Shown: positions 28,977-48,384, numbered from the stretch's first letter. The stretch is DNA of 64,000 nt from Proteromonas lacertae (GCA_002245135.1 NGBS01000331.1:1-64000), one strand, 5' to 3'. Program-made: numbers and translations. Notes: a model not told the origin generated them from the sequence alone.

Positions 28977-29222
28977 ATAATAATGAAAGAAAGGGGGAAA
29001 TGAGTACAATTTGAAATCCCTATTATTTTTGTATTTTTTGTATTGATTTCCCCCTATGTGTTTTTTGTCCGTTTCATAATCAAATCATAATTCAAGCTTA
29101 CATTATTTTTCGCTTTTCTGTTTGAATTTAAACAAAAATAATTATTCCATTTGAATCCTCATCTTATGATGAATCTATTTATGTTGTTAGTTCAAATTAT
29201 AGAAAGTGAATGACATATAATT
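28977..29222. repeat. Left terminal inverted repeat
   Basis: Starts ATAATAATGAAAG; reverse complement of 48139-48384 with one mismatch seen. Confidence 0.96.
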
Positions 29223-29257
29223 CGAAATCAATAATCATTAATTCAAATTGAATTTAA

Positions 29258-30012
29258 TTATAATCTTCCATAAGAAAATAAATCGACTTCTTCTATTTGA
29301 TCTTCACCATAAGAAAATAAATTAACTTTTTCTGTTTGATCTTCATCTGTTTCTTCATCATCATCATCCAGATTATCAAACAACGATGCTACAGAGACTT
29401 TACTACTTACCATACTTTTCGAATTCTTGTTTTCTTCTTTTTCGCATTTTGCTAATTCTGCTTCAGATTCAGATATTTCTTCTAGATCATCATCACTATC
29501 ATTACTATAAATAATTCCAATAACATTGTTGTTGTTATCATCCATCTCGTTAGGGTAATCTTGACATTTGTCTCCATCTCCCCACTCTGTTATGTTTTCT
29601 TCAGTTAGTGACTTTAATGAGCAGTATATATAATCCAATTTTCTGTCTATCTATAAAAAAATAATATAATATATATATAAATATACAATTGACTTTGGAT
29701 TTGATGGTAAATAGTTAAAACAATATATAAAATTGGACTTGAAGTCCCTGTAGTACTGTATTCTGTCACGAGAATCGTAGATCCAAAAATGTTTTAAAAT
29801 GGCTGATCATTGTATTCATATTTGGATAGTAGCAGTTTCTTTTCCACCTAAGAATAATATAAATTAGGAATATACTTATATCTGCTTAGTTCTCTTTGTC
29901 TTTTCATGATATCATTCAAATTGTATACTACTATATCAAACTCAGGGTCATCGTGATAGTATTTAATTTTCACTCTGTAGATAATCTCTTGTTTCAAGAT
30001 TATACGTGCCAT
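29258..30012 (-). CDS. Intron-containing viral hypothetical protein with acidic tail (one frameshift)
   Basis: ATG at 30012; GT-AG introns 29875-29848 and 29686-29651; paralogue of 47080-47884; needs one single-base correction in exon 2. Confidence 0.7.
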
Positions 30013-30404
30013 AATTCTATATATAAATTAATTAAAAAAATACATTAAATACAAGTGTATTAATTATGTACTTTTTATAAAGAATGAATTGACTTTAGCT
30101 AACTATAATTTATATATACTTACTAGGGTATATACCCATCTCAATTATATCAATATCTTATTTCAGGCAATAATCTAAATCATCTTTGATTATGAAACAT
30201 ATATGAAATCTAACTATATCAATCGATTGCTCATGATATGCCATATAATAAGAAACACATCAGATTATTCATTATGTCAATGGATCATGAGATATTATTT
30301 TTTTAACAAACCTCAAACATTTGTATTACTAAACAAACAATAACTTTATTGATTAGACCCATAAAAATTTAATAATATATATAATAGCAAAAAATACAAA
30401 GAAT

Positions 30405-30899
30405 ATGCCTGACCATTTAACATATAATATGCTTAGACAACCTAACGGTGAATATGCTTTTTATATTCATAGATATAGAGACAATAGAGCACATAGATGG
30501 GTTATTCAATTTCCAATTAAAACAATGAAAATATTAAAAAGAAATAAAGTAAAGGTGTTTATATGTGGTTCACTCAGAACTAATAGAAATGATCCAGAAG
30601 TACTAGGTGATTATAGACATCATGGTGATCAATTAATGATAAACCTCAAAACCTATGGGTATGACAGAAGAGCTTCAATATTAGTAATGAATAGAAAATT
30701 AAGAAATGGAGAACATGAGTATGCAGATGGCGATTGTATTCCTCAAAAATTTAAAAAATATGTTTTTCATCATATGAGTTATCAATGGAATGGAGGGAAT
30801 TTTTATCACATACATCCAGTTGATAGAAATGTTGCTGATGGAATTAGTAGTAGTAGTAGTAGTGATAGTAGTAGTAGCAGTAGTAGTGACTCTGATTAA
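30405..30899 (+). CDS. Viral hypothetical protein, Ser/Asp tail
   Basis: Clean 164-aa ATG ORF. Confidence 0.75.
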   Translation: MPDHLTYNMLRQPNGEYAFYIHRYRDNRAHRWVIQFPIKTMKILKRNKVKVFICGSLRTNRNDPEVLGDYRHHGDQLMINLKTYGYDRRASILVMNRKLRNGEHEYADGDCIPQKFKKYVFHHMSYQWNGGNFYHIHPVDRNVADGISSSSSSDSSSSSSSDSD

Positions 30900-31007
30900 A
30901 TACTTAAAAATTCTATATATTATTATTATATATGTTTGTTTTTGTTTGATAAACATACTATTAATAGTTACTATATTTTAAATAATATCAATTATAAAAA
31001 TCACAAC

Positions 31008-31379
31008 ATGTCTTATTATGGAGGATGGCCAAAAGGGTTTAAAATTAGTAAAGACTGGAATACATATATTCCTAAATCAGTTAACAGGAGTAAATGGAGA
31101 AAGAGCTATGATTTGTATAGAGACAAAGTAAAGAATGCACTACAAAACAAAACGAAAGTTAAATTACAATATAGACAATTAATGAAAATGTATGAACGAT
31201 TATTAGCTGCTAATCCACCTAAACAAAGAGGAAGACCAAAAGGAAGTAAAGATAGAGCAAAACGTAAACCAAGACGAGCCGGGCCACGAGCCGCGCCAAA
31301 GAATGATCCACATCGTATAGTTGTGCATAATGGCAGGCATTATCAGTATGGTATTCCAGTTCCTAATATGGATAATTAA
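31008..31379 (+). CDS. Basic AT-hook protein
   Basis: PKQRGRPKGSK AT-hook core; very basic; ATG at 31008. Confidence 0.7.
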   Translation: MSYYGGWPKGFKISKDWNTYIPKSVNRSKWRKSYDLYRDKVKNALQNKTKVKLQYRQLMKMYERLLAANPPKQRGRPKGSKDRAKRKPRRAGPRAAPKNDPHRIVVHNGRHYQYGIPVPNMDN

Positions 31380-31486
31380 AGTAATTCTTTATATATTCTG
31401 TTTTTTATGTAATGTTATGTGTGTTTGTTTTTTGGTGTTTGGTACTGCTATATCCGGCGGCCACTTGACAACTTGAATTGTAATAT

Positions 31487-31557
31487 AAGTTACAACTGGC
31501 GCCAGTTGTAACTTGAATTGTGATGTATCCTACAACTGGGCCCAGTTGTAAGATACA
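31487..31557. repeat. Tandem palindromes (TACAACTGG core)
   Basis: Perfect 28-bp palindrome 31487-31514 and 20-bp palindrome 31531-31550 (extends to 31524-31557). Confidence 0.9.
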
Positions 31558-31607
31558 AGTTTAACCAAAAAAACATAATATAATATAATATAAAAAGCGA
31601 AATAAAT

Positions 31608-31844
31608 TTATATAGTCATTTTCCTTTGTTTAGTGATTTCAATAAGAGACTGAATATCCTTAAGTGTCTTATCATGTTCTAACCCTTTATTCATCATGGC
31701 ATCTATATTATTTCTAAGTTCTTCTATGTCTGTATTGTTTGGAATACAATTGTGTGCCTTTAAGTATTTGAAAAGAGCCAAAGCTATCATATACAATACA
31801 AATACGAGAACTGAAAGCAAAACAGTTATTACATCAAAGTCCAT
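31608..31844 (-). CDS. Small membrane protein
   Basis: N-terminal TM plus short coiled coil; degraded homologue at 27790-27895. Confidence 0.7.
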   Translation of the reverse strand: MDFDVITVLLSVLVFVLYMIALALFKYLKAHNCIPNNTDIEELRNNIDAMMNKGLEHDKTLKDIQSLIEITKQRKMTI

Positions 31845-31911
31845 GTGTGTTTATGAGAATCTTATATAAGAAAACAAAATTAATCAAAGTAATGTATTTA
31901 TTATCAATAAA

Positions 31912-32514
31912 CTAACTTACAAGACATTGGTTATTATTAATATATTCATCCTTAATGGATCTTGGTGATATTGGAGATAAGTCATAATCTGTGAGATTGA
32001 CATTGTCATTGTCATTTCCAAGCTTGACTTGTATTTCTTCTATTTCTTTATTACTATTATCATTAGGAGGAGGAGGAGGTAATATATTAGCTTCATGATT
32101 CATCATAATAATACTTTCTAATAATTGATGAGTTTTTTCAAAAGATGGGTTTCTTTTCTCCTTAATCTTGTTAACACACTCAAGGAACATATTAGGTGTA
32201 ATGCGCACAGTCTCATCTACATCAGAAATACCTAATCTTTGAATTAATTTCTCTTTACTCTCATCCCACCAACATCCATTTTTGAATCTATATTCCAAGT
32301 CTAATCTATACTGTTCATCGACGTATTTGAGTATATATCTGATCTCACTATAAGTTAATTCCTTTTTCTCGCCACATATGAGATTCCATAATTTAGATTT
32401 GGTTGGTGCCCTCATTTTGCCATCCTTTCTAAAGCAATTAATAAGTATTTGTTTATCAGAGTTCCAAAAGTTATATGGCACTGTTCTAAATTTGTGCTCC
32501 TGATCGTTATTCAT
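31912..32514 (-). CDS. Viral hypothetical protein
   Basis: 200-aa ORF; central part duplicated at 57322-57581. Confidence 0.75.
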   Translation of the reverse strand: MNNDQEHKFRTVPYNFWNSDKQILINCFRKDGKMRAPTKSKLWNLICGEKKELTYSEIRYILKYVDEQYRLDLEYRFKNGCWWDESKEKLIQRLGISDVDETVRITPNMFLECVNKIKEKRNPSFEKTHQLLESIIMMNHEANILPPPPPNDNSNKEIEEIQVKLGNDNDNVNLTDYDLSPISPRSIKDEYINNNQCLVS

Positions 32515-32599
32515 TTTTAAAAAATAAAAGTGTAATTAATACTAATAATGACAATATTGACATTATTAACGAATTTATTTTCAAAATAGATTTTATCTT

Positions 32600-33556
32600 A
32601 TGTTAGTTTCGAATCATCGTGTATACTACTTAAATTCTGATATGATTGTATTATCTGATTCCATGGGCGGAGGAAACAAGTATAAGAAGACATTAAAATT
32701 GCAATCATTCGATGATTATACTCATGTCAGCTTATTACATGCTGTTATACCCAATTCATTCCCAACTATACAGGAAGAAACAAATGATGAGTTTTCATTA
32801 GTATTCACATTGGGATGGAGACATGATGTTCAAGTAGATACACCAAAGTATCCAAACATCATAAAACACCTCAAAATACCAGAAGGATTCTATGATGAAA
32901 CTCAGATATTAAGTATGATTAATAATTTAGTCAAAAATATGACATATGATGTTTTTGGAATAAAAGATGATGCATATAATACTGAAGGTTCACATGTGTC
33001 TATTATACAAGGAAAAGGAGATTTATTTCGTATAGACAATTTCGATGATAATCAAACATATCATATTGAGGTAGCTAATGATATGAATATAATATACTAT
33101 CAAAAAGACCCAGTATATTGGATAGAAAAATTAGAGATCATCACCAAAGATCTTAGTTACAAAATATTAGGCATACCCAAAAACAATTACTGGTGTTGTT
33201 TTAAAGAATATATTCCATCTGAAGAACCAGAGAATCAACAAGAAATTATGGTTAAGCCATTCCCATTTACTCAATTACCATTTCGTCCTTCTTTGATATG
33301 GGTTAATTCTATATCCATTAGATTAGACATAGTGAATATTATGCAGGATTCAAATGTATTAGAAAATATACCCGTTTCAAATCCTGAGTTACCATTTATT
33401 ACATATCAGAATAATGACATATTGAATACATCAAAGAGATTCAATAATACCTATAACAATGGTATGATCACTATTCAGATTACTCAACAAAATGGCTATG
33501 AACTTAATCTTGATAATATTGAGTTTAATTTAGATATTGTTGTATTTAAAGTCTAA
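32600..33556 (+). CDS. Minor capsid (penton-like, single jelly-roll) protein
   Basis: VSLLHAVIPNSF, IPEGFY, ITIQITQQNGYELNL patterns typical of PLV/virophage mCP; lies immediately upstream of the MCP. Confidence 0.8.
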   Translation: MLVSNHRVYYLNSDMIVLSDSMGGGNKYKKTLKLQSFDDYTHVSLLHAVIPNSFPTIQEETNDEFSLVFTLGWRHDVQVDTPKYPNIIKHLKIPEGFYDETQILSMINNLVKNMTYDVFGIKDDAYNTEGSHVSIIQGKGDLFRIDNFDDNQTYHIEVANDMNIIYYQKDPVYWIEKLEIITKDLSYKILGIPKNNYWCCFKEYIPSEEPENQQEIMVKPFPFTQLPFRPSLIWVNSISIRLDIVNIMQDSNVLENIPVSNPELPFITYQNNDILNTSKRFNNTYNNGMITIQITQQNGYELNLDNIEFNLDIVVFKV

Positions 33557-33587
33557 TTTTTATATTTCTTTATTCTTTTGTTTTCTA

Positions 33588-35075
33588 ATGGCTTTATCTA
33601 TTCCAAAAGAACAGAAATATGGTGTAGATGTCCCTGTGATGCTACCCTTCTATAATTATGTGAGATTGACTCCGATGGGATCAACATCAGAATATACTCT
33701 AAGTGATAACGCGTATACAGAAGAGATTAGATGGGAGATAAGTGGAGATAATATTATCAATTTAGCTAAGTCATATATTCAATTCGATATAGATGTAGAA
33801 ACAGAACCAGTAGCAAAAGGTTCAGAAGTAGGTGCTGTTAGAGCAGATTTAAGTAAGAAACTTATAAATAAAGATAATGATTTATATCCAAGTACAATTG
33901 GAGGAATTAAAGAAGGGTTTGGCTTGGCCTCTTTTAGAATTTGTAACCAGACTGGAACAGATCTGGTCAAGCTTGATGATTCGTATGAACCATATCGTGT
34001 ATTTATGGATGAATTAGTTAGAAAGAGATGCGATATATTCTATCAAGACAATTACTATGATGGAATACAATTAGATTGAAGTAACGATGAACACAGTTAT
34101 CTTATTCAAGATGTTAATAAATGGAAAATGGATAAAGAAATGAACGGTGCATTTACTGATACTGTAGACACTGTAGAGATTTTTGATACTAGTAATAATA
34201 AAGTAACAAATGCTACTGTGTATAAGAGTAAAAAGACATTACATTTCAAATTACAGTTAGGTAAATTTTACAATACATTTGCTGCATTAAAGAGCGATGT
34301 ATTCTTTGGAGAGAGAATGTATATATGCATTCGATTCCAAACTAAAGCAAATTATGGAAATTTGAAATCATATACACCAACGAAATATTGTATTGATGAA
34401 AATGGTTATGAAGATTTAAATAATGTTATAGCATGGGATAGGAATGGTGGTATTAAAAATATGACATTTAAGAATTTTAAATTTTATGCTTATATCAACA
34501 AGGATACTCAATGCAACAATAATACCAAACAATATTGTTTATCAAAACCTATTCAATTCAATGATTTCAGATGTCATCAAATTGTTGTACCATCAGGTGG
34601 ATCTGGCATATTCAATTATTCATTCACATTGAATAGTTCCAATGGACCATTTGTTCGTTACATTATCTATAGGCCATGGATAGAATCATTAAAAAGATAT
34701 GCACATGTACCTGAAAATGCACAATTCAGATGGATGATCAATGATTTTGTATATCAGCCAGATTATACACTTATGCAATATTATGATAGCTTCATGACTG
34801 TCCGTGAATATTTCCAAGACTCATGGTTTGATATATTCAGAAAAGATAAGAAGTTCAATGACAAGTTGTTTGAGATATTGAATTTTGGCTCTAAGGATTT
34901 GGACAATATTAAGAACCAGGCAGGTAGACCTTTAGCTACTGATTTGAAAATAACCTTTGAATTTTCAACACCTGGTAAGAATGACTTTACTAATAATGAT
35001 ATATCTCATCGTTTCTATATCATCACTGGACGCATGGTCACTATTAATGGAAGTGGTATTGTAAGTGTAGTTTAA
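33588..35075 (+). CDS. Major capsid protein (double jelly-roll), one in-frame TGA at 34077
   Basis: IRWEISGDNIINLAKSYIQFDIDV N-terminal MCP pattern; two ORFs in the same frame total ~495 codons; sits between mCP and ATPase. Confidence 0.8.
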
Positions 35076-35142
35076 AAATAATCATAATCATAATATCAAT
35101 AACGGCTATATTTCTTATAATTATGTTTTTGTTATTTTTGTT

Positions 35143-35985
35143 ATGAGTAAAGTTAATTTAGAAAAAATAAACAACATAGTCATAAATCCTGTTGAGACAG
35201 TAGTCAAAGGATGTGGAAAACGCTCCAAAGATAGTGTCCTTGGATATGACTATTTTCAGGAGCCTTTCTGCAACATATTTATTTTAGCTAAGAAAAACAG
35301 TGGTAAGACTACACTTATATTTAATATGATCCAACACTTGTTAAAAAAGGGATATGACCAAGTAGTGTATTTTTTCGTTGCAACTATATCCAAGGATATT
35401 ATATATGAGAAAATCACTGATATGCTCAAGTATAACCAAATTGAGTACCATTGCTATGATTCAGTAGTGAATGAAGATAGAGTGAATATATTGGATGCAG
35501 TATTAGATAATATCAAAGATATAGACAAAGATAATTATGATTACCCAGAGAATATATTTATATTCGATGATATATCATTTGATTTAAGAAATAAATCCGT
35601 TTCTAAATTACTTAAGTCAAACCGTCATTACAAGTCAAAAGTAATTATATCAAGTCAATATGTCACTGATATTACTCCATCAGTTCGTTTACAGCTTGAT
35701 TACTGTTTGGTATTCAAAAACCTGGTAGGTATAAGAATGTATGCATTGATATGGATCGATTTCGATGTTTTCAAATCATATTATGATTATGCAACCAAAC
35801 AGAGTAATCACTCATTTTTATATATCGATTTATATAATCATGAATTTAGAGTGAATTTTGATAGTAGAATAAGAGATAATAGTAATAATAGCTATAATCA
35901 CAATAATAAATATGATCACCTCATTTCCTATAGCAGCGATGATGAGTCCACTGATTCATCAAGTTATCCCAGCGATTCGGAATAA
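35143..35985 (+). CDS. A32/FtsK-HerA-type genome packaging ATPase
   Basis: Walker A AKKNSGKTT, Walker B FIFDD, RHY..IISSQY. Confidence 0.92.
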   Translation: MSKVNLEKINNIVINPVETVVKGCGKRSKDSVLGYDYFQEPFCNIFILAKKNSGKTTLIFNMIQHLLKKGYDQVVYFFVATISKDIIYEKITDMLKYNQIEYHCYDSVVNEDRVNILDAVLDNIKDIDKDNYDYPENIFIFDDISFDLRNKSVSKLLKSNRHYKSKVIISSQYVTDITPSVRLQLDYCLVFKNLVGIRMYALIWIDFDVFKSYYDYATKQSNHSFLYIDLYNHEFRVNFDSRIRDNSNNSYNHNNKYDHLISYSSDDESTDSSSYPSDSE

Positions 35986-36040
35986 TAATAATCCCCATAT
36001 TGTCACTAATATAATTTTTTTGTTTATTTTGCTATATTTT

Positions 36041-36913
36041 ATGTTTGGCCGTCCTATTAAAAAACAAGCTGTATCAACAGATCTAACACCTGTCACGAGG
36101 GCACTGACATCGATTACAAGCAATTTGGGAGAAAAAGTTGGAGATGCTAAATCGATTAGAGAAATGTTGGTCGATATCAAGAATAGTGGTACAGGAGGAT
36201 CATCTGGATCAGGTGGTGGTATTGATAGTGCAACTAGCGAGAAAATTGATGGAATTGTGAATGTCATTGGAAAGACCAAATTAGAGAGTTGGGAAAATAA
36301 CATATATTATATGTTATCTATTTTGTATTCTACAATTTATGATGATGCTAATTCAATTGCTTATAATGTCAATAGTATAATGTCCTATATAGGATATCGA
36401 AGTGAATATCAAGATAGTTCATGGAAAATGGAGAATCGTATAAAATGGAGTTCTATGGGTGAAAATAACATGATATTAAAATCTGTAGATGGTCAATTAG
36501 AAATTGTTCAAGCAAGACAAGTTTTACCAAACTGTTATTGCTTTGTAAGATATGCAGCTTTTCAAACATATTTGCAAATAGAAATACTAAATCCTGTTAG
36601 AATAATAACAAGCGAACTAATAATTAATTCAATCTAAACTCCAGATGTAGAAATAATTTTAAGCAAATATTTAGGTTATACAAATAATGTACCAAGAATA
36701 GATATTTTTTTTGAGTCATTAAGTGGACATCATCAAGTATGCTTTTTTGAAATCACTCGTGATATATGTTGTTTCAGTATGAAAAATCCTACTACAGAAC
36801 ATAATGTGGATAACTTTGAAGGTAATTGTATTCTAATCCCACAAAAAATAATATTTCCATATGGTAATAATGTTATAATTCATAAAGATGATGCATTTGA
36901 TTTTAATATATGA
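36041..36913 (+). CDS. Putative fibre/spike-like virion protein, in-frame TAA at 36635
   Basis: Helical N-terminus, Gly linker, beta-rich C-terminus. Frame stays open 92 codons past the TAA. Same position after the ATPase as 55646-56495. Function is inferred. Confidence 0.5.
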
Positions 36914-36920
36914 ATTATAA

Positions 36921-37622
36921 TTAATTCTTCTTGTTTCTCTTGTATTGTTGGTTTTGATTATCACTCTCAGTTCTTCTTTTCATCGGAGCAGGTGTTGTTG
37001 GTACTGGAATAATATCATAATCTGCAGGTTGTGTATACATATTCTCCAAATCTATATCATTTACATCCTGATTCTCAGCACACTGATCCTCATCATCCTC
37101 CTTCTCCTTCTCAAGTTTTTGCTCAAATTTCTTGATACTACTATGCACTTCAAATTTTGGGATAATAGTGTATTTTTCTTTATCCTTCTTATCTAATACA
37201 GTTATCTGTCTAATTCTCAAATCACACTGACACTCATAAAATAAATAACTTGGAGGATCTTTAATCTTGTTTAACCATGCCCAGAATCTGACAGTGTTAT
37301 TATCGTTGTCTTCAGAAAATATCACTTGGAAGCCACATTTCTTATAGTCTTTAACCATATTTGAGTCATCTGTATACTTGATGGCATAATCCACAAACAT
37401 TTTTTTCAAAGGCTCCTTTACATCTTGATAATAATTTTTAATAGGTCTTCTGTTCTTAAATAAGAACCTTCCTGGAGTAAAACTCATGACATAGTACTTT
37501 GCATCTTCAATCTTTTCTGTATTTGGTTCAGCTTCATTACACCATCCTTTTACAGTTAAATAAGTAACATCTCTATCATCTAATGTGATAAAATTAGATC
37601 CATTATTGATATTTGAACTCAT
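36921..37622 (-). CDS. Hypothetical protein, possibly ssDNA-binding (OB-like)
   Basis: Size, architecture and weak N-terminal similarity to 60948-61721; basic C-terminus. Confidence 0.5.
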   Translation of the reverse strand: MSSNINNGSNFITLDDRDVTYLTVKGWCNEAEPNTEKIEDAKYYVMSFTPGRFLFKNRRPIKNYYQDVKEPLKKMFVDYAIKYTDDSNMVKDYKKCGFQVIFSEDNDNNTVRFWAWLNKIKDPPSYLFYECQCDLRIRQITVLDKKDKEKYTIIPKFEVHSSIKKFEQKLEKEKEDDEDQCAENQDVNDIDLENMYTQPADYDIIPVPTTPAPMKRRTESDNQNQQYKRNKKN

Positions 37623-37805
37623 ACCGCCAAAATGAATATTATATATCCGTTTCACAAAAAAGATTTATGTGGTTTGAATATATTTGATACATTTGGAGCG
37701 GTTATACAAATTACCGCGCATACAATGAACATGTGTAAATTGTATAGTTTGATTACACAAGCTTATTTGATAGATTCCATTTTCATCATTTCATTACACT
37801 CAAGT

Positions 37806-38057: not shown

Positions 38058-38702
38058 TTACGGTCTATAGTATTCTCTTTTTGATATGACTCCCACAAAT
38101 TTACAAAGACAATGATACACGCTCCATATTAACCGCTCATACTCATCTAACTCCCTATCAAAATGCACCAACTCATAGTGATTTCCTTCTTTTTCATTAT
38201 TACGTATACGTTCCCATAGGCATATTAATACATTATGAACTCCAACTTTTACTGCAGAGTACGGAACAGTATCTTTCAAACATAATTTTATAGCATCATC
38301 GACTCTATTACTTACCTCTATACAATCTTCTACACTGAGATTAAAAAATCTTGTTTGAATTCTATAATGAGTTAGAGATTCTTTAAAAATTTCTAAAATA
38401 CGCTGAATTTGAGTTATATTGAATTTCACACGTGGTAAACTCTCTTCACCAATTGGTAATGCTAAACCAGCATGTCCCTCACAATCACATATTGCTCTCT
38501 CGCTATGCTCCAAAACATCTAAATTAGCTTTATATGTATGAACATCCATTTTCTTTACATCTTTCTCATTGAATAGACATACTGGTTTTACAGCATCTTC
38601 AATCGGCAATGCTCTTTCTAATTCAGTGAAATCTAGAGGTTTAACAATACTTTTAGGTGAGTCAGTATGTTGTAATGGTGGTACAGTGTTCATGATAAGC
38701 AA
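38058..38702 (-). CDS. Viral hypothetical protein
   Basis: 214-aa ORF with normal composition. Confidence 0.7.
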   Translation of the reverse strand: MLIMNTVPPLQHTDSPKSIVKPLDFTELERALPIEDAVKPVCLFNEKDVKKMDVHTYKANLDVLEHSERAICDCEGHAGLALPIGEESLPRVKFNITQIQRILEIFKESLTHYRIQTRFFNLSVEDCIEVSNRVDDAIKLCLKDTVPYSAVKVGVHNVLICLWERIRNNEKEGNHYELVHFDRELDEYERLIWSVYHCLCKFVGVISKREYYRP

Positions 38703-38752
38703 AATAAAATTAATTAAAAAAAAATAAAGTAATTACGTTTAATCACTAACAC

Positions 38753-39301
38753 TTAAAGATCTTCTAAATCTTCTTCTTTATCAAGGTTTTTTGAATCGTC
38801 ACATTGCATGTTTGGCTTGATCAAATGCTTATGTTTTTTTGATGGTACTAATTCATCTAATGATTCAGATATAGCATTTAATAATTTTCTCTTGATGATG
38901 TGTATCTTATTATCATTGTCATTCACAATTTCAGGAATATCATATACATCATACCATTGATCATTATCGCTATCATAATCATCCTGCTCCATATTCGATT
39001 CAGCGTCATTTTCATCTTCACTATATGCAATGAAATCCTTTAAATTACCATTACTATCAACATCACTTGCATTTGGATCATCTTCAGGATCATAGTCATC
39101 TGATTCATCGTCAGTACATTCTGCTTCTCCATACAAGTACTTATACACATTATCTAAATAATCATTCTCTCTTTTTCTTTTTTGACTGAATCGCATTTTC
39201 TTATCTTCTAAATTTTCTTTCTTTTGGTCTTGATCATTTGATTTACCCATTATGCCTATAATATGTATGGTATTATGGTTGTTTGAATCCATAGAACACA
39301 A
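38753..39301 (-). CDS. Acidic hypothetical protein with NLS-like motif
   Basis: D/E-rich; QKRKR; start uncertain. Confidence 0.65.
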   Translation of the reverse strand: MCSMDSNNHNTIHIIGIMGKSNDQDQKKENLEDKKMRFSQKRKRENDYLDNVYKYLYGEAECTDDESDDYDPEDDPNASDVDSNGNLKDFIAYSEDENDAESNMEQDDYDSDNDQWYDVYDIPEIVNDNDNKIHIIKRKLLNAISESLDELVPSKKHKHLIKPNMQCDDSKNLDKEEDLEDL

Positions 39302-39360
39302 TATACAAAAAATAATAAAATGAAACGAATATATTTCAAATATTGATATTATGTTAATTA

Positions 39361-39720
39361 TTAACCTATTAATGTCATATTTTGTCTAGCATATTGCACA
39401 GGAGTTAAATTCTGTGCTGGGTATGATTGTTGTTGTTGTATTGGTGTATGATTTCTCTCCATTAACACTTCATCTGCCAATTTATTTAATATAGCTTGTG
39501 CTTCCTTGAATGTCCATGGATTAATACTCTTTAACATCTGTTGTGCCTCTGGAGGTAATGTTTCGAGTGTTTTCAATACTTGAGTTTGTTGATCATTTTG
39601 TACCGATTGTTGCGATTGTTGATTTGGTTGTTGTTGTGGTAGATATTGAGGGTGTTGACCATCTTGTTGATATGCAACACCACTATTAAAAGTTATTTGA
39701 GGTATTGGACCAGCTGACAT
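39361..39720 (-). CDS. Gln-rich hypothetical protein
   Basis: ORF from MSAGP. Confidence 0.65.
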   Translation of the reverse strand: MSAGPIPQITFNSGVAYQQDGQHPQYLPQQQPNQQSQQSVQNDQQTQVLKTLETLPPEAQQMLKSINPWTFKEAQAILNKLADEVLMERNHTPIQQQQSYPAQNLTPVQYARQNMTLIG

Positions 39721-39794
39721 ATTAAAAACGGCTATAATGGCAATATTGATATTATTGACTATATTATCACTCAAAAATATAATTATTTCAAATT

Positions 39795-40290
39795 ATGGTT
39801 AAAAGAAGTTCAAAAGCGAAATATCGTAAGTATATCATAGGTAAAGGCAAGTTCTGGGATGGAGTAAAGAATTTCTTTAAGAAAACAAAAATTTTATCAA
39901 CAGCAGCTAGCTTAATCCCAGGTGTAGGTCCAGCCTTAGGTAATGTTGTATCCAATGTAGGATATGGTAGAAAACGTAGAAGAAGAGGAGGACAAGCAGA
40001 ATGGAATTATGATGGTGGTATAAGTGGTGGTACCAAAGGAAGTAAAAAGTGTAATTAGTGGTGGTCCAGGCAGTATGCCCTATTTAAAAAATGGCGGAAT
40101 GGCTAATCCATTTGCTGTAAAGATGTTAGGTGGTCCAAGCACTATTCCAAAAAAGAATTGGACAAAAGGTGGTCCAAGTACTATACCGAAATTTTTGTTA
40201 GCAAAGAAAAAGACTGGTTCTGGTAAAAGACGTAAAAGTAGTAATAGTCTCGATAATCGATATATTGACAATAAGATTAGAGTTTTCTAG
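39795..40290 (+). CDS. Basic core-protein precursor(s) with repeated GG sites (two overlapping ORFs or one frameshifted gene)
   Basis: IIGKG-KFWDGVKNFFKK amphipathic helix, RKRRRRGG, ISGG, MLGG, GGPSTIPK x2. Confidence 0.7.
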
Positions 40291-40348
40291 TCTAATTTTA
40301 TTTTTTCTATTTTAATCGTATTTCTTTATTTTCATTCGAAATAACATA

Positions 40349-40636
40349 ATGCCAAAAGGTGGTAGAAGACGTAGATGCGTTTATGGAAGAAGGGGTGGTT
40401 CATTTTGGGGTAAGTTAAAAAATTGGGGTTCCAAAGCATTTAACTGGGCAAAGGATCATAAAATAGCATCCAAAATAGCTAGGGAATTTGGAAAGAACGA
40501 TATCGCAGATGGATTATCAACAATGGGATTTGGTCGTAGTAGGTCAGGAAGAGGTAGATTACCATTCAATGGAGGTGGGAGTAATCAACAAGCATTATTG
40601 AATGCATATTTAAAATCAAAGGTGGCTCGAATGTAA
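40349..40636 (+). CDS. Adenovirus pVI-like membrane-active core protein
   Basis: GG-SFWGKLKNWGSKAFNW resembles the mature pVI N-terminal amphipathic helix; Arg/Gly-rich. Confidence 0.65.
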   Translation: MPKGGRRRRCVYGRRGGSFWGKLKNWGSKAFNWAKDHKIASKIAREFGKNDIADGLSTMGFGRSRSGRGRLPFNGGGSNQQALLNAYLKSKVARM

Positions 40637-40727
40637 ACTTGACTTTTAATAATGCTAATAATACTTATATTATTATTTTCATTGTTATTTTTGTTAATTT
40701 TATTTTTTCATAACATAGAAATAAAAA

Positions 40728-41342
40728 ATGAGTGATACTGAATCAACTGAATATGTGAGTGATGATAGTTCTACTGATGTGTCTGATAGTGAAGTAGAGT
40801 CAATAAATGAAAATGATTCCAAGATGTCCAAACCAAAAATCACAGAAGCTGAACCAAGTGATGCTATGATCAATGAATTACTATCATAATTCTCTCCAAA
40901 GGATATATACAACATATTACAGAATGATGGATCATCATCTCATAAAAATTCAAAAAAAGGTAAAAAACACTCCCATAAATCCAGATCAAGATCAAGATCA
41001 CATGAGAGATCCAAAAGAAGATCTAGTAAGAAACAAAAATCAAATGCTTTAGACGAGCCTAAGTCCAAACGTGGTGGCGGTAGAAAAAATAGCAAAAAGG
41101 ATAGGGACTCATCATTACCTCCTCCTAGTCGTATGACAAAAGCTGAATTACAAATAGCTTTGAAAGAAACTAGAGATCAATTAGGCAAATATATGAAGAA
41201 ATTAGAAAAGAGTTCAAATCCAAAGAAAGAGAAAATAGAGAAAGTAAAAGAACCAGAACCAGAAGAAGATAAACCATTAGGTAATGATATTGCAGGTAGA
41301 GAAATACAAGGCGAGCCTATCGAGCCTGTTTATGTTCAATAA
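40728..41342 (+). CDS. Acidic/RS-rich basic protein, in-frame TAA at 40887
   Basis: ATG at 40728 is in frame with ORF 41133-41342; contains an SRSRSRSH..RR tract. Confidence 0.65.
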
Positions 41343-41408
41343 TATTAATAATACTTATATTACACATTATTATTATAATTAAATTGTTTTTTTATTTTCT
41401 ATTAAGTA

Positions 41409-44400
41409 ATATTTGGTGCTACTCCTACAACAACAAATTCGACGAGTGCGCCGGCCACTTCAAATATTCAAGCATCGAATGTTACAACTGCCCCCAGTTA
41501 TAATAATACAACTTCAATACCTACAACTGGTGCAGGTTATAATAATCAAAGTTCAAATGCTGCAAGTTACGCCGGAATGATGGCAGGTGCTGCTGCCGCC
41601 ACGGGGCAGCAGCCCAGCCAACATTCCAAAATAACACACAACCAATACAACAACAACAACAACAACAACAACAAAGATATAATATAGATGCTATTATGGA
41701 AAAAATACAACCATTTTTGATTAATCAATATGATTATGAATCAGTTAAGCAAATGGTTATGAATAATACAAAACAAGATTTAGAAAATGTATGTAAAAAT
41801 GTAGGATTGCCATTAGATATTATATCAAAGTATTCCAGCTATGGTGGAACAATAGATCAATTAGTAGATTACTTACATTATTTCAAATATCAATGTGGTC
41901 GTAGTGTTCCAGAAGCACGATCAGATGTGTGTAATTTAATTATTGGTATGGGTAGTGAATATGTTTTATGGCCAAAAGTAAATTATGGTTTATTTGGTAT
42001 GTCTTTAGATGGATATCCAAAGACAGGTTCAGGAAGAAGAAAACATGTTCATTTCAAACATAAGAAACATCACAGAAGAAATAAACTCAAATTAGAGAGT
42101 ATCCCACGGAGGCATCTCTTGGCTACTAAGAAATTAGGTGGTAATAGTGGTATTATACCATTAAGAGTGGGTCAAAGTGTTGGTCCTAATGAGCATGTCA
42201 TTATTACTAATCCAAGACAACAAATGTATGATGCTGCTAGTGCTGCTTATATTGGAACATCACAATTACAGCCAAGTCAAATACCAGATTATATTCAACC
42301 ATATATACCAAAAGAAACTGTAGGATATGATTATAATTGGAATTATGATAAATTATTTAGTCCAGGTTTGAATAGACAAGCTCGAAAAGAAGTTCAATAT
42401 GCATTAACTAATAATTATGCTTCTTTGCTGCCTAACAATTATCATATTAATTTTTATGATATGCTAGATCGTGAACATAAAACAGGACATTTAAGAGGAA
42501 CATTCCCATTAGCAACATTAGATACATCTAATCCAAGAAGCTATCTTTTGAACTGGCCTGAATATGTTACAGAAGCAGATGTTCAGGCATATGATAATGG
42601 AATGAATAGAGTTACAAATCCTTTGTTACAAAAATTTCCTAAATTACAAAATTATAAATCATTACAAGAGATTATAGAAAAGAATCCTCAATTAGCAGCC
42701 TATAAAAATTATAGACAAGATTGGTTGACCTCAACTTGGGACAAATTAACAGGTAATGATAAAGATGCAATAGAATATTATAACAAACTATTATTACAGC
42801 AGGAGTATTTGCAAAATGAATTAGTTGATGAGTAAGTAAGATCAATCAATATTCAGATCCATATAATTTTGATCCAAATCGAGCTGAAAAAGTAAAAGAA
42901 TATATTGCATTGAATAATCAAAAGGCACAAAGATATATGGATGATCAAGAGATATTAGAAAGATCAAAATTTTATAGATGGGCATTAGATCCAAAAAATC
43001 AGGAACTGATGAATAGCGCTATAGATATGGGTGAAGGACAGTGTACATTAATTAATGAAGATAAATATAGAGAGCTGAATGAAATAGCATCACAGAATAG
43101 TAGAGATTTCATTAACTTTGATTATAACAGAGAGAAGTTAGGTCACTCACTTCCTCAAGAGTGGGTGAATGCAGATAATAAACAAAAATATGAAATAGCT
43201 ATTGGTTTAGTGAAAACTGCTTGTAGTTCATAGTCACAATTTGAAAATTCACAGTTTCAAAAAGCACTTGATTCATTACGTGAATCTGATTTTATGGGTT
43301 TTGCTGGTAATTTGTTCCTGTGTGTAGAGAATGTATTTAGGATATTTCCACAAATATACTATACAATGAAGTCATATTTGGTAGGTGGAGTTACTCCTCA
43401 AATGTTTGAAGTAGATCATGCAATGAAATATGTTCGTGCAATAGTAATGACATGTTTGGCTTATTGGTTATGGAAAAAATCCAAACTACCAACATCAGGG
43501 TTCTTGTATGTAATGTGGTACTTCATTTTCGACTACTATGAAATAATTCGTATGCTGTCAGGTGGTAGATTACCTGCTATCACTGACTTGTATTATGGTA
43601 ATTCAGAAAAAGTTAAGTCAATGTTACCTGAAGCAATTCAAAAATCATGGTTACCTGTAGACTTGTTGTATAACTTTGGTGTTTCATTTATGTTCAATAC
43701 TCATCCATATGTTCGATACTTATTTCAATTAGTTCCATTCTTCTACAAATTTTCTAATATTGGAAATATAGATGCAAAAAATGTAGGTGATACATTAAAA
43801 ACAGCAGCAACTGTAGCTGCAGCTGCAAATGGAGGTGATGCAACAACTGCTGCAGCAGCAGTTAAAGGTATCAGTGAATTATCAAAAGCTATGCCATCAA
43901 TGGCAAAAACTGCTGTTGCAGCTGATCCAACAGGTACATTACAAACTGTTGCAGGTATAGGAACAGTATTCAGTGCATTGACTGCTTGTTTTGGTTTGCT
44001 AGATGCAGGTGGTTTATTAAACTGGTTAAAACCAACACCATATCAACACAAGAATGCAATCAAAATGGATAACTACGTGAAACGTTCACAACAAACAATT
44101 CCAAGTTCACTCACTAATTTTGGTAGAGCAGTGAGTAATTTAGATCAAGCAAAACAACTCAGTGAAGCTATGAGTTACTTTGGAATAGGTAATGGAAATA
44201 ATAAAAAAGTAAAGAAATTAATTTCACGTAGGAAAGTTTTGTATAACAGTATCACTTCAGATGCCTTATCGAACTTTGATATAGAGTTAATTGTGAAAAA
44301 TGAGTTCAATAATTTTCATGGAAAGTTCATGGGAGTGTTCTGCTGGGACGAGCTTGTACTTCTTATACCCAAAAAGAAGAATCAATGGGGAATCATAATC

Positions 44401-44757
44401 AATACACTCACCACACAAGCTAGCCCTGATTCTATAGGTCATTGGGTGGCCTTAGTAGTTGACAATATCAAGAAGCAATTCCTGTACTATGATTCATTTG
44501 GTGAAGATCCTCAACACTTGGAAGAATTTAAAAAAAAATTGAAAAAATTAAAGAAGTATCATAATGAAAAGTATGAACTTAAAATCAATGGAGTACAGAA
44601 TCAAAATTCAAATACTGCTAACTGTGGTTTTTTTGCTATTAATTTTTTGAAAAATATTTTAAGAGATCAGTGTAGTTTCAAAAAGGCTACTGACTATAAT
44701 ACAATAGTGGGTGAAGCAAAAATTAGGTTAATGAAAAAACAATTTGGATTAATATAA
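41409..44757 (+). CDS. Reconstructed ~1100-aa virion protein ending in an adenain/Ulp1-like (clan CE) cysteine protease
   Basis: GHWVAL..YYDSFG..QNQNSNTANCGFF catalytic H-D-Q-C in 43294-44757. Upstream ORFs join via single-base shifts at ~41615 and ~42832 and an in-frame TAG at 43231. Confidence 0.75.
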
Positions 44758-44805
44758 TATATAATATATAATTATTACTTAATTATTTTTTTTTTCTGTT
44801 TTTCT

Positions 44806-45213
44806 TTATGTGTGGTAAAATATTGTATGAGTTTCAATATATTCTATCATCTCTGTATCCACATGAGTACATTTGAAGAATATTGGCATCTTACCATTAA
44901 AGCGGCTTTGTGGCATTCTAATGATTACTTTTTTCATTGTTGGTGTGTATGTAACTTTGGGTCTATCTCTATTTCCTAAGTCACAAGGACCTACAAACAC
45001 TAATATCAAACGTTGACTCATAATCATGTTAATCATTTTGTGTGTTAACTCAAAATACCATTGATATATTGGTTTTCGATGATAAAAAAATATAAGGAAT
45101 TGTAGGCTATACAAATCCAAGTATATGTCTGGACCACTTAAATGATATTTCTTTGTTACCTTGGATTCAAGTTCTGGTAATTTATATTCAATCTGTGGTG
45201 GTAGTGTAAGCAT
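44806..45213 (-). CDS. Viral hypothetical protein
   Basis: ORF from ATG 45213 (MLTLPPQ). Confidence 0.65.
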   Translation of the reverse strand: MLTLPPQIEYKLPELESKVTKKYHLSGPDIYLDLYSLQFLIFFYHRKPIYQWYFELTHKMINMIMSQRLILVFVGPCDLGNRDRPKVTYTPTMKKVIIRMPQSRFNGKMPIFFKCTHVDTEMIEYIETHTIFYHT

Positions 45214-45276
45214 ATATAAAAAATAGAATATACTATATGTATATGTATAATAAAATATTTTAAAATAAAAGAAATT

Positions 45277-45371
45277 AAAAAAAATGGGATTACTAATAGT
45301 CTGTGCTAGGAATCGAACCACTAATGCCAGCTGCATTACTCTTTTTTCCTTGCACAGTCTATCAGATCCCA
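45277..45371 (-). ncRNA. Putative Pol III hairpin RNA (VA-RNA-like)
   Basis: 87-nt stem-loop with a consensus B-box GGTTCGATTCC, a G-U pair only on the minus strand, and a T8 run directly after. Confidence 0.6.
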
Positions 45372-45378
45372 ATTAAAT

Positions 45379-45457
45379 AAAAAAAAGGGCATTTAGATAT
45401 ACCGTGCCAGGATGATTCAAGCCGAATTTCAATGGCGCAATATTAAACAACACATCC
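45379..45457 (-). ncRNA. Second putative small hairpin RNA
   Basis: Imperfect stem with G-U pairs on the minus strand, degenerate B-box GGCTTGAATCA, T8 run. Confidence 0.4.
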
Positions 45458-45615
45458 AAGTAGAAATTATTAAACTTCCATAAATTCCTTGTGAAATTAA
45501 TTTAATAAATAAATAATTATAAATTAGAAACGCAGCCCTCATCGTAGCTAGTCTATCCAATGCCCAATAATAAAAAACAACATATACAATATATAGCATA
45601 ATAAAAATTTATTCG

Positions 45616-46918
45616 TTACAATATTGATTTGTCTCCCTTCTTTCTCTTGGGTCTCTCCAGTATTTTTCTAAACCATGTGGTTGGTGCATCATCTTTTCTC
45701 ACTAACTGCAACTCATAGTGTTTGAATCGAATTAATGAAAAACCTTGAATGTCATTCCCATTGATATCACCTAAATTGTATGAATATCGATTTTTCTTGA
45801 TTATCTTATATACATTGTCTGACCAGTATATGTTCTTATCCATTTTACGTCTTCTCTCTTTGAATCTCACCAAATCACCTACTTCGAAATTTTGACCAGT
45901 ATGATCTAATTTTTCATAATTCTTTAAGTTGTAGTTAATTGATTTTTGTAATATTTGTTTTTGTAATTCTGGACTATGGAATACCTCATTTGGGGTATAT
46001 CCTTTAATTCCTGGTAATGGCTTGTTGTTATAGTCATCTATCACTTCCTGTATTATACTATCTAGTTTCAATTTATAATTCATATCTGGTATAATATGCT
46101 TATCATTGTGATCAATATCTGCCATATATGTAGGTGCATCATATCCCAGATCCACCAAGTGTTTGTACAACAGTCTTTTTATCATCACTCACTGATCTAT
46201 CCAATAATGACTCTATTTTATGCTCTGAACCATCTTTTTGAAAATATGATATTCCTTCAGCATCACATAACTTCTTGATATTTGAAAAACTAGCATCAGC
46301 ATCTGATAGGATACTTACCACATTTTTATGTGTTTTGTTTCCATAGGCATCTGTTTCATAATACCACTTCTGAAATGCATCCAATGTAATATCACCATAT
46401 TTATTAGGCATAAATATTGCCCATACTTTTCTTGAATTCATTTCGATAAAATACAAATGTTCCATATCAGGTAAGAAAAACACTATATCCATTTGGAAGT
46501 ACCCTGGCTTTTTGATAGTTGCGAATGGATTATTTTTTTTATATTTGAAATCGACAATTTGTTTTCCAGGTTGTCTCCTTAAGTATTCACGTACTACATC
46601 TGGTGGTGGAGCTATATCATTCATACTAGACAAATGTTGTGTCATTTTGACAAATTCATTTTCATTAAGGTAATAATATTTTTTATATAGTTCATCTAAG
46701 CGTGATCGATATTGGGCAATTTGGTTTGACATTTGGTCTTCATACGAAGCCTCTCTTGTTGGATGTGTAATATTCGGTGCTCCATGGTTAATATATGTTG
46801 CAAGTGATAAGTTACCATTTGTAGGTAACGGTTTGACAGGATATGGGTTCTGGTTGCTATATGAGCTGTATAAATGTGGATCGTAACTATTAGTGCTAAA
46901 CATATGGTCCAAAAACAA
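45616..46918 (-). CDS. Polinton-type rve (retroviral-like) integrase, frameshift near 46188
   Basis: FQMDIVF, SRKVW, ILSDADASF, LDRSV, YNNKP..G.TPNEV, FEVGDLVR, WSDNVYKI. Confidence 0.9.
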
Positions 46919-47079
46919 AAAACAAAAGTAATAATGAAATTCATTTCATTATGATTATTATCTAAATTAATAGAGTTATATGTCTTTATAGCAACATTTA
47001 AAAAAATATATATCCGTTTCATATATACATATAACATTTGTTCATCGTTCAACATTATTTTCCTTTCAATTCACTTATT

Positions 47080-47884
47080 ATGAGCAACTGGAAGATACTA
47101 TACAAAAACAGCTTCATTAATGATCCAAATCCGAGCATATATAAAATTTTATGTGAGAATTTTAAGACGATTACAGAACATGAGAAAGATTTGCAACGTT
47201 ATAGGTATATTATATTATTATATGTCTATAGCTGGAATGGTAACTTCAGTATAAGGCGTTTCAGAACATGGTACAAAAGATTCACAGAAATTGAAAAGAT
47301 TGATGCTCGACATGAAAGATTAAAAATGTCCAGAGTGTTGATGTCTGTCCTGCTATGTAATATCATGTATAAAGAGGATCTGGACAAAAGCATCGTATAT
47401 CCATTTAATATATATTTCAATTTTGAATCAATAGTATGATCGTATGCTTGACCATGCAATGGAGGACATGGTGGAACTGACTTGTATGTATATCATACAT
47501 TTCGGTGACAACGATTTAGCAAAATGCGAAAAAGAAGAAAACAAGAATTCGAAAGGAGATATAGTTTACAGAAGTACTGCTGAAAGTATAGTAAGTAGTA
47601 AAGTCTCTGTAGCACCGTTGTTTGATAATCTGGATGATGATGATTATAATGATGATGATGATGACAACAACAAGTTGTTAAAGGTGGTATCCACAAAAAG
47701 AAAGTGCAGTACATCTAAAACTCCAAGATTCAAAAGAAAGAAAATAAATCAAAAAAACATTTCAACCAAAAACCAAAAACAAGAAGATAGTACTACAGAG
47801 GAAGAAGATGATGATGATGATAATAACTTCTCACAATATATAGTTGATGATGATGAGGAGCCAGAGTACCAAAATGATTATTAA
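47080..47884 (+). CDS. Intron-containing viral hypothetical protein, acidic tail with NLS
   Basis: GT-AG introns 47205-47231 and 47395-47434 give a continuous frame; intron positions match the paralogue at 29258-30012. Confidence 0.8.
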
Positions 47885-48056
47885 TCTCTGGTCCTAATTG
47901 GTTCAAATGATAGATTGTGTTTGTGTGGGAGTGTTGTTTTCATAATTTACTTAATTAATTAGCATTATAACAAGTCTTATAAGAAATATCAATATTAGAA
48001 AAATAGATGCGTTTCGAGATTTGACTTGAACTCCATTTTTTTTTTTTTTTTATTAC

Positions 48057-48108
48057 ATAGGATGGTCACCATATGGTGTCATATCACACCATATGTTGAC
48101 CATCCTAT
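48057..48108. repeat. 52-bp hairpin next to the right TIR
   Basis: 23-bp arms with one mismatch and a 6-nt loop, preceded by a long T run. Confidence 0.85.
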
Positions 48109-48138
48109 TGAGATTGTTTTTATTGAATTATTTTTTGA

Positions 48139-48384
48139 AATTATATGTCATTCACTTTCTATAATTTGAACTAACAACATAAATAGATTCATCATAAGAT
48201 GAGGATTCAAATGGAATAATTATTTTTGTTTAAATTCAAACAGAAAAGCGAAAAATAATGTAAGCTTGAATTATGATTTGATTATGAAACGGACAAAAAA
48301 CACATAGGGGGAAATCAATACAAAAAATACAAAAATAATAGGGGTTTCAAATTGTACTCATTTCCCCCTTTCTTTCATTATTAT
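48139..48384. repeat. Right terminal inverted repeat
   Basis: Ends CTTTCATTATTAT, followed by TSD AGCTTG. Confidence 0.96.

What the first reader, a model, noticed from the sequence alone, without database searches (positions are those of the whole stretch)
28977..48384. Complete capsid- and integrase-encoding Polinton-like virus with no DNA polymerase or helicase: candidate satellite
Seen: both 246-bp TIRs and the 6-bp TSD AGCTTG are intact, so the whole genome is visible. It carries mCP, MCP, ATPase, protease and integrase. No ORF shows pPolB, primase or helicase motifs and no unassigned gap is large enough to hold one. The termini read ATAATAATG. Known: Polintons carry pPolB plus rve integrase and make 6-bp TSDs; short terminal reiterations serve slide-back protein priming in adenovirus and phi29. 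Inference: a full-size, replication-dependent virus that borrows pPolB in trans, perhaps from the family represented 7 kb downstream.
Basis: partly seen in the sequence, partly recalled or inferred. Interest (0 to 1): 0.9.

Follow-up and report, generated by a model that had tools for sequence, protein, structure and literature searches.

The report
Polymerase-less Polinton-like provirus, starting to decay
This is a whole 19.4-kb integrated virus-like element that carries capsid, packaging, protease and integrase genes but no detectable DNA polymerase or helicase, and it is most likely a damaged, dependent offshoot of a polymerase-bearing family, not yet a proven satellite virus.

Summary
The observation largely holds. 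The 246-bp TIRs (1 mismatch) and 6-bp TSD are exact, and the insertion splits a decayed hAT-like transposase frame. The MCP folds as a double jelly-roll. ATPase, protease and rve integrase are present; mCP rests on position only. A pPolB profile that detects 20 of 22 50-residue pieces of an outside polymerase finds nothing in six frames, and the only Walker A motif is the ATPase's.

The MCP has an in-frame stop and the integrase a frameshift. The proposed helper downstream is itself truncated, with its pPolB cut. The capsid resembles an MCP group already listed from Proteromonas lacertae. TIR-bounded polB-less Polintons are in print (insects).

Best reading (0.5): a recently inserted deletion derivative of a pPolB-encoding family with the same ends, likely copied in trans. 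A stable satellite or bipartite lineage (0.22) and a small hidden initiator (0.15) stay open. No sister copy could be fetched, so the decisive test was not run.

The parts
28971..28976 (+). left target-site duplication AGCTTG
28977..29222 (+). left TIR, 246 nt, begins ATAATAATG
29258..29545 (-). 95-aa acidic ORF; 102 nt of it (29357-29458) recur inverted at 47513-47644 with 3 mismatches and a 30-nt indel
29650..30012 (-). possible broken small ORF (two stops), no family hit of note
30405..30899 (+). 164-aa ORF of unknown function; holds an H-I-H motif near its C-terminus (weak candidate HUH-like initiator)
   Evidence: no family or homologue found
31008..31379 (+). 123-aa basic ORF (26% K+R)
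31486..31557 (.). two tandem palindromes with shared arms, between convergent genes
   Evidence: (z -6.8)
31608..31844 (-). 78-aa ORF, hydrophobic N-terminus then coiled coil; weak SLATT hit (E 0.016, far below cut-off)
31912..32514 (-). 200-aa unknown ORF; a 274-nt piece recurs at 57316-57588 at 97% identity
32600..33556 (+). 318-aa putative minor capsid protein (position and size only)
   Evidence: no hit
33588..35075 (+). major capsid protein, double jelly-roll; in-frame stop at 34077-34079
35143..35985 (+). A32/FtsK-like packaging ATPase, 280 aa
35912..36913 (+). possible fibre/spike gene (inferred from position and a Gly/Ser linker); stop at 36635
36921..37622 (-). 233-aa unknown ORF, beta-rich low-confidence model, no convincing fold match
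38058..39720 (-). three separate unknown ORFs (211, 179 acidic, 119 Q-rich) with AT-rich spacers
39795..40636 (+). three small basic, Gly-rich frames (87, 88, 95 aa), likely virion core proteins
   Evidence: 20-24% K+R; resemblance to adenovirus core/pVI proteins is recalled, not tested
40728..41342 (+). 204-codon acidic-then-basic ORF, stop at 40887
41406..43233 (+). unassigned frames (93, 379-429, 98-133 aa); no P-loop or polymerase motif
43234..44757 (+). hydrophobic N-terminal part plus C-terminal adenain/Ulp1-like cysteine protease
45616..46903 (-). rve-type integrase, frame change near 46189
47080..47884 (+). 119-aa ORF and 146-aa acidic ORF, in the slot where the neighbour has a 257-aa gene and pPolB
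48057..48108 (.). 22-bp-stem hairpin just inside the right TIR
   Evidence: (z -8.1)
48139..48384 (-). right TIR
48385..48390 (+). right target-site duplication AGCTTG
55201..63934 (+). neighbouring, different Polinton-like element: partial ATPase, rve, 257-aa ORF, pPolB cut at about 63918

Best explanation
This is a TIR- and TSD-bounded Polinton-like provirus with virion and integrase genes but no detectable replication enzyme; it most likely lost its polymerase end-module by deletion, was likely copied by the protein-primed polymerase of sister elements with the same ends, and carries a nonsense codon in its capsid gene. Shown: ends, TSD, double jelly-roll MCP, ATPase, protease, rve, absence of pPolB and of helicase P-loops, and the stop in the MCP. 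Inferred, step by step: (1) the parent had pPolB next to rve, as the neighbour does; (2) that end was deleted and patched, the 102-nt copy of the left-end gene near the right end being the likely scar; (3) a sister's pPolB and terminal protein primed at the ATAATAAT reiteration; (4) an rve integrase (own or sister's) inserted it with a 6-bp TSD; (5) it has drifted neutrally since. Whether the loss came before or after this insertion is open; I put about 60:40 on before.
For: No pPolB remnant: the best of 376 frames scored 2.1 bits, whereas 20 of 22 50-aa pieces of an outside pPolB scored over 10 bits and the neighbour's gene 320 bits. The rve + 6-bp TSD + protease + reiterated-end set is the Polinton set, in which pPolB is the norm. 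The neighbour has pPolB divergent from rve, one gene away; the finding has two small ORFs there, one containing a 97%-identical inverted piece of the left-end gene. Family DNA is deleted and patched elsewhere in this window: the relic at 27793-27958 joins pieces that lie 12.8 kb apart in the element (85-88% identity), and a 274-nt piece sits inside the neighbour. 1 TIR mismatch in 246 predicts 1.7 nonsense codons (range 0.04-9.6) under neutral decay, in line with the 1 proven and 3 possible ones. Precedent: TIR-flanked polB-less Polintons whose close sisters keep polB and which still spread (bioRxiv 10.1101/2025.02.07.637071, section 13).
Against: No sister copy with pPolB was seen, because none could be fetched. 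The clean absence of any remnant and a normal full size of 19.4 kb fit a long-standing polymerase-less design equally well. The gene-order argument rests on a neighbour of another family. About 15 ORFs are unassigned, and Pfam also missed this element's MCP and integrase halves, so its negatives are weak for small divergent enzymes. Premature stops in protist EVEs are often assembly errors (PMC10120064 section 7), and this window shows 11 indels between two copies of an 8.5-kb duplication, so the frameshifts may be artefacts.
Confidence: 0.5

Rival explanations
1. A stable polymerase-less lineage: a satellite virus, or the capsid half of a two-part Polinton, that makes its own virion and always borrows pPolB and terminal protein from another element with matching ends.
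For: No polymerase trace at all. Full virion module with protease and likely core proteins. Reiterated ends retained. A 97%-identical piece is shared with a pPolB-bearing neighbour of another family, so their DNA has met recently. An earlier scan note describes a split Polinton in another genome (e1-8580994; unchecked lead).
Against: One copy only, with a nonsense codon in the MCP. The neighbour is broken and its ends are not visible. The shared piece is a truncated fragment flanked by unrelated DNA, which also fits patch repair. Simple polB loss is documented.
Confidence: 0.22
2. The element has its own small, unrecognised initiator (for example an HUH-type nickase in the 164-aa ORF acting on the palindromes at 31486-31557) and uses host or giant-virus polymerase.
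For: The 164-aa ORF holds an H-I-H motif and lies 600 nt from two strong palindromes. HUH genes and replication-module swaps are common among PLV groups.
Against: No HUH family hit in Pfam, PHROGs, NCBIfam or PDB sequences. The motif is three residues, and similar ones turned up in 2 other frames. Linear-type reiterated ends point to protein priming. No fold could be run for this ORF.
Confidence: 0.15
3. A virophage-like dependent virus replicated wholly by a co-infecting large DNA virus, like the reduced PLV group VC40 that lacks detectable replication genes.
For: 15-20-kb PLVs lacking any detectable replication gene are described (bioRxiv 10.64898/2026.06.19.733378 passage). Several PLVs depend on giant viruses.
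Against: VC40 has a different, NCLDV-like MCP and is not described with rve or protease. Only three strong hairpins occur, so there is no genome-wide hairpin pattern at gene ends. Reiterated linear ends suit pPolB.
Confidence: 0.08
4. Assembly artefact: collapse or mis-joining of similar copies removed the polymerase region.
For: EVE assemblies are error-prone. The window has a giant near-perfect inverted duplication with 11 indels between its arms.
Against: Matching TSDs and a host frame that continues across the site show that both ends belong to one insertion. No polymerase stub is left.
Confidence: 0.05

Closest known systems
Endogenous PLV-type MCP cluster of Proteromonas lacertae (Bellas et al. 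2023, PMC10120064, Tables S1, S3, S4: 285 MCPs in one cluster)
   Same: The MCP printed in Table S3 shows, in the same order, the six short motifs that mark this family (N.INL.KSY, D.FFGE, FNYSFT.N, NSS.GP, WMINDF, FE.LNFGS; compared by eye) and was also recognised only by fold.
   Different: The N-termini differ and no alignment score could be computed. The gene maps of those elements are figures that I could not see, so whether they carry pPolB is unknown to me.
Polintons/Mavericks (Polintoviricetes; Alpha 'adintovirus'-type)
   Same: TIRs, 6-bp TSD, reiterated end motif, rve integrase, cysteine protease, ATPase, double jelly-roll MCP.
   Different: No pPolB. The MCP has no sequence match to named Polinton capsids. 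Ends are 5'-ATA ATA rather than (AGT)2 or (AG)3. The third catalytic position of rve reads D in both elements of the window.
polB-less Polintons of Pieris mannii and other insects (bioRxiv 10.1101/2025.02.07.637071, section 13)
   Same: TIR-flanked, lack polB, and appear to have spread after the loss.
   Different: Those carry a LINE or LTR cargo and have known polB-positive sisters. Here there is no retroelement cargo and the sisters are unknown.
Blastocystis MELD virus (Starrett et al. 2021, PMC8502044, section 3.4)
   Same: Gut-protist element with Polinton-like integrase and virion proteins unrecognisable by sequence; a 'MELD virus sp.' protein is rank 4 in the viral fold search (TM 0.51).
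   Different: It encodes PolB. Identity with this family was not shown: the short MCP motifs were not found in the supplement text held.
VC40 reduced PLVs (bioRxiv 10.64898/2026.06.19.733378)
   Same: 15-20 kb, no detectable replication gene.
   Different: NCLDV/Yaravirus-like MCP, with Tlr6F and methyltransferase as the consistent genes; none of these was found here.

Membership tests
Polinton/Maverick | [quoted passage not shown] | tested here: met
Polinton/Maverick | rve-type integrase | tested here: met
   30-37% identity to the neighbour's rve-like protein over both halves, first two acidic motifs kept, frameshifted
Polinton/Maverick | protein-primed DNA polymerase B | tested here: not met
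Polinton/Maverick | cysteine maturation protease | tested here: met
   PF02902 E 1.1e-7, PF00770 E 6.1e-5
Polinton/Maverick | short reiterated end motif | tested here: met
   ATAATAAT at both ends; about 1-2% by chance
Polinton-like viruses (broad sense) | double jelly-roll MCP | tested here: met
Polinton-like viruses (broad sense) | A32-like packaging ATPase | tested here: met
   Walker A/B; 45% identical to the neighbour's piece, which hits Pox_A32 weakly at E 0.018
Polinton-like viruses (broad sense) | single jelly-roll minor capsid protein | tested here: inconclusive
   318-aa ORF upstream of the MCP; no family hit, not folded
Polinton-like viruses (broad sense) | replication gene (pPolB, SF1/SF3 helicase or primase-helicase) | tested here: not met
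   the single Walker A in six frames belongs to the ATPase; Pfam negative on 150 of 151 frames of 40 aa or more
Proteromonas-type EVE MCP cluster (Bellas 2023) | MCP in the same 25%-identity cluster | tested here: inconclusive
   six motifs match in order by eye; no alignment computed
Satellite virus | a lineage that stably lacks replication genes | not testable with these tools
Satellite virus | a helper with matching ends and intact pPolB | tested here: inconclusive
   the neighbour's pPolB is cut and its ends are not in the window
HUH/rolling-circle PLVs (Mriyavirus-like) | HUH endonuclease | tested here: inconclusive
   one H-I-H motif, no profile hit, no fold run
Virophages (Maveriviricetes) | virophage-type MCP | tested here: inconclusive
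   no Pfam family hit for the MCP pieces; virophage capsids score like other jelly-rolls in Foldseek

The most novel reading that the evidence does not exclude
A true satellite among Polinton-like viruses of gut protists: a 19-kb virus that builds its own capsid and integrates itself but has permanently outsourced replication to another Polinton-like virus's protein-primed polymerase through shared end sequences; or the capsid half of a two-part Polinton.
Probability: 0.22. Interest if true: 0.75.

Novelty: new member of a known kind. Interest (0 to 1): 0.4.

Why it matters
How endogenous Polinton-like viruses without a polymerase are copied is an open question (PMC10120064 discussion; bioRxiv 10.1101/2025.02.07.637071). 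This copy is a clean case: both ends and the target site are visible, and the absence is backed by a sensitivity control. Counting sisters in one genome would settle deletion derivative against satellite. It also gives a full gene map for a capsid family that has only unnamed relatives in the protein collections searched. If sisters keep pPolB it is an ordinary defective provirus.

Tried and rejected
Sister copies. No sequencing run was listed, which is no evidence either way. MCP, ATPase, integrase and TIR queries found no related locus in viral contigs, JGI metagenomes (26, 47), prokaryote genomes (107) or phage records (31: one chance hit at E 1; 85, 86: none). A pPolB relative fetched two distant viral contigs; L001 was read and used as a control, and L002 was not examined.

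Unknown ORFs. The 233-aa ORF, suspected from its acidic tail to be an ssDNA-binding protein, had no homologue among 199 candidates, a poor model (pLDDT 40.8), best Z 6.0 to unrelated folds, no useful viral match and no similarity to the neighbour's 257-aa protein. It stays unresolved. The ESM Atlas returned no result for the sequences tried. Rfam found nothing.

Considered and rejected. A changed genetic code: the internal stops are of three kinds and host ORFs read normally. An intron at the 42832 junction: the GT-AG gaps there do not give a frame (read by eye). The neighbour as the working helper. A giant-virus hairpin pattern at gene ends (3 hairpins only). No complex was predicted, as no binding claim is made.

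Literature. Searches for polB-less, non-autonomous, bipartite or satellite Polintons. For this host group. None listed a capsid-bearing satellite of a Polinton; only open-access text is covered, and bioRxiv supplements and all figures were not visible.
Full report
Boundaries. The element runs from 28977 to 48384 (19,408 nt). Its TIRs match over 246 nt with one mismatch, and AGCTTG flanks both ends; two random 6-mers of this window agree with probability 8.6e-4. The flanks give an independent check. Read separately on the minus strand, the right flank ends in ...EIISTIPC and the left begins SSFIERSFSIE...RRNRL, in frame across a single TSD copy. The left part hits the hAT dimerisation domain weakly (E 0.067, below cut-off); the right part has no hit. 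So both ends belong to one insertion into a likely dead hAT transposase, and the whole genome is visible. The element is richer in GC (0.25-0.34 per kb) than most host windows (0.20-0.25).

Genes that are there. The C-terminal MCP frame found 6 relatives among 414 candidates, all unnamed Logan proteins. A profile search of 1.84 billion representatives gave 23 hits at E up to 0.001; none of those looked up carried a name. Folded with 28 relatives and X at its stop, the MCP gave pLDDT 82.8 and matched iridovirus, PBCV-1, faustovirus and Sputnik capsids (E 5e-12 to 7e-11) and viral models including a MELD virus protein. In a tree of 24 of the 29 rows (those of 340 aa or more) it sits in a supported group with P0001- and P0002-type proteins, 67-69% identical. 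The ATPase has the only Walker A of the element. The protease passes two Pfam cut-offs. The integrase halves align with the neighbour's rve-like protein. The mCP is assigned only by position. Three small basic Gly-rich frames look like core proteins; their likeness to adenovirus core proteins is recalled, not tested.

The gene that is missing. I built a profile from 19 full-length relatives of the neighbour's pPolB. It scores the neighbour at 320 bits and the element's six frames below zero. Across 376 frames of 25 aa or more the best score is 2.1 bits, while 20 of 22 50-residue pieces of a pPolB outside the profile score above 10. No pPolB region I, II or III motif occurs. Pfam on 150 of the 151 frames of 40 aa or more hit only the ATPase, the protease and two weak membrane-type matches on one 80-aa frame. 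The largest gap outside my gene map is 859 nt. A polymerase or P-loop helicase is therefore absent with good confidence. A small initiator is not excluded: Pfam also missed the MCP and integrase here, and about 15 small ORFs have no match. The best such candidate is the 164-aa ORF with an H-I-H motif, near two palindromes at 31486-31557. This is a weak lead.

The MCP has an in-frame stop at 34077 where 5 of 5 full-length relatives are open. The integrase changes frame near 46189, and there are stops at 36635, 40887 and 43231 and a frame change near 42832 that I could not check against relatives. The window's 8.5-kb inverted duplication differs by 11 small indels but only 7 substitutions, 6 of them in the last 25 bases where the match ends. 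If the arms are true copies, errors here are mostly indels: the frameshifts may be artefacts, and the stops are more likely real. One TIR mismatch predicts 1.7 nonsense codons (0.04-9.6) in 14.2 kb of coding DNA under neutral decay, which fits a recent insertion that has begun to decay. Bellas et al. warn that such stops often vanish on read correction (section 7), so raw reads are needed.

The neighbour. The element at 55201-63934 starts in mid-ATPase after unrelated GC-richer DNA, has no MCP in the window, and its pPolB is cut at about 63918, at residue 651 of a 1318-aa relative. It is another family (ATPase 45%, integrase 30-37%). It holds a 274-nt piece of the finding's 200-aa gene at 97% identity, truncated at both sides. 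A relic at 27793-27958 joins two pieces of the family that lie 12.8 kb apart in the element. Deletion and patching of these elements is thus common locally. In the neighbour, pPolB lies divergent from rve with one 257-aa gene between. In the finding that slot holds two small ORFs, one with a 102-nt inverted copy of the left-end gene (3 mismatches, 30-nt indel), which I read as a likely rearrangement scar.

Mechanism. The ends carry a trinucleotide reiteration (1.1% of positions by chance; 2.1% for any period 1-4). Such motifs serve jumping-back protein priming and are expected to do so in Mavericks (PMC8097293 passages). The terminal protein is part of pPolB in Polintons (PMC11071308 passages), so both primer and polymerase would have to come in trans. 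I infer loss of the replication end-module from a pPolB-bearing parent, copying by sisters that recognise the same ends, insertion by rve, then decay (0.5). Rivals are a stable satellite or two-part lineage (0.22), a hidden small initiator (0.15), giant-virus dependence (0.08) and mis-assembly (0.05).

Host. This is inferred, not shown: an AT-rich eukaryote with many glycosyltransferase-like genes and a short GT-AG intron of about 26 nt near 20721 (read by eye). The MCP resembles by six ordered motifs the one printed for Proteromonas lacertae, a genome with 285 MCPs in one cluster (PMC10120064 Tables S1, S3, S4). An opalinate gut protist (Proteromonas/Blastocystis group) is the likely host.

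What is known. Many protist EVEs lack a detectable polymerase (PMC10120064 passages). VC40 PLVs of 15-20 kb lack replication genes, and replication modules swap often (10.64898/2026.06.19.733378: passages and sections 5 and 9). Replication and integration genes form end modules (PMC11296320 passages). TIR-bearing decayed or dependent copies occur in Halocafeteria (10.64898/2026.07.28.741278 passages). polB-less Polintons spread in insects while sisters keep polB (10.1101/2025.02.07.637071: passages and section 13). A PolB-bearing MELD virus is known from Blastocystis datasets (PMC8502044: passages and section 3.4). A Blastocystis genome paper has no occurrence of 'Maverick' in its main text (PMC12129017 passages). 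I also saw passages of PMC12220804 and 10.1101/2024.03.23.586382, which did not change the reading. My searches listed no capsid-bearing satellite of a Polinton. Figures and bioRxiv supplements were not visible, and the Bellas spreadsheet was cut, so the gene content of the Proteromonas elements may already bear on this.

Verdict. The element is real, complete and polymerase-less. It works like a non-autonomous Polinton but fails strict Polinton membership on pPolB. It is a new member of a known kind, with an open and easily tested chance of being a true satellite. Interest 0.4.

Noticed in passing
window 55201-63934: Second Polinton-like element of another family, truncated on the left in its ATPase, interrupted at 57316-57760, with pPolB cut at about 63918 by GC-rich DNA; closest full pPolB relative P0017 (45% over the region searched).
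   Followed up: partly
window 27793-27958: Relic of the finding's family (85-88% identity) joining a piece of the 78-aa gene to a piece of the protease gene, beside GC-richer unexplained DNA at 27130-27790.
   Followed up: partly
window 16-8562 and 10375-18915: Giant near-perfect inverted duplication of a glycosyltransferase/methyltransferase-like gene cluster; the arms differ by 11 small indels. A real palindrome or a long-read artefact.
   Followed up: partly
window 1-27111 and 53697-54677: Dense cluster of probable glycan-synthesis genes (GT92 confirmed by Pfam at 25939-27111; the others named by recalled motifs only).
   Followed up: no
window 28783-28976 and 48391-49923: Decayed hAT-like transposase remnant that served as the insertion site, itself interrupted by a 608-nt MITE-like element (48515-49122, 186-nt TIRs).
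   Followed up: partly
window 50330-50800 and 54700-55200: GC-richer repeat family with a 100-bp-arm hairpin (50594-50796) and shared 50-nt units; it sits at the broken left edge of the neighbour element. Nature unknown.
   Followed up: no
window 31486-31557 and 48057-48108: Two tandem palindromes with shared arms between convergent genes, and a 22-bp-stem hairpin just inside the right TIR; possible origin, terminator or protein-binding sites.
   Followed up: partly
window 45616-46903 and 59752-60879: Both integrases have Asp (LDR) where rve enzymes usually have the third catalytic Glu (the usual pattern is recalled; L001's integrase reads VERFN).
   Followed up: no
window 32514-32600 and 39720-39795: The two divergent promoter regions share an AATATTGA-centred AT-rich motif, and TAATACT recurs upstream of 32600, 40728 and 41406.
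   Followed up: no
L001 176-8482: Viral contig with ATPase, protease, C2H2 zinc-finger protein, intact pPolB and rve in tandem; a distant Polinton-like virus fragment.
   Followed up: no
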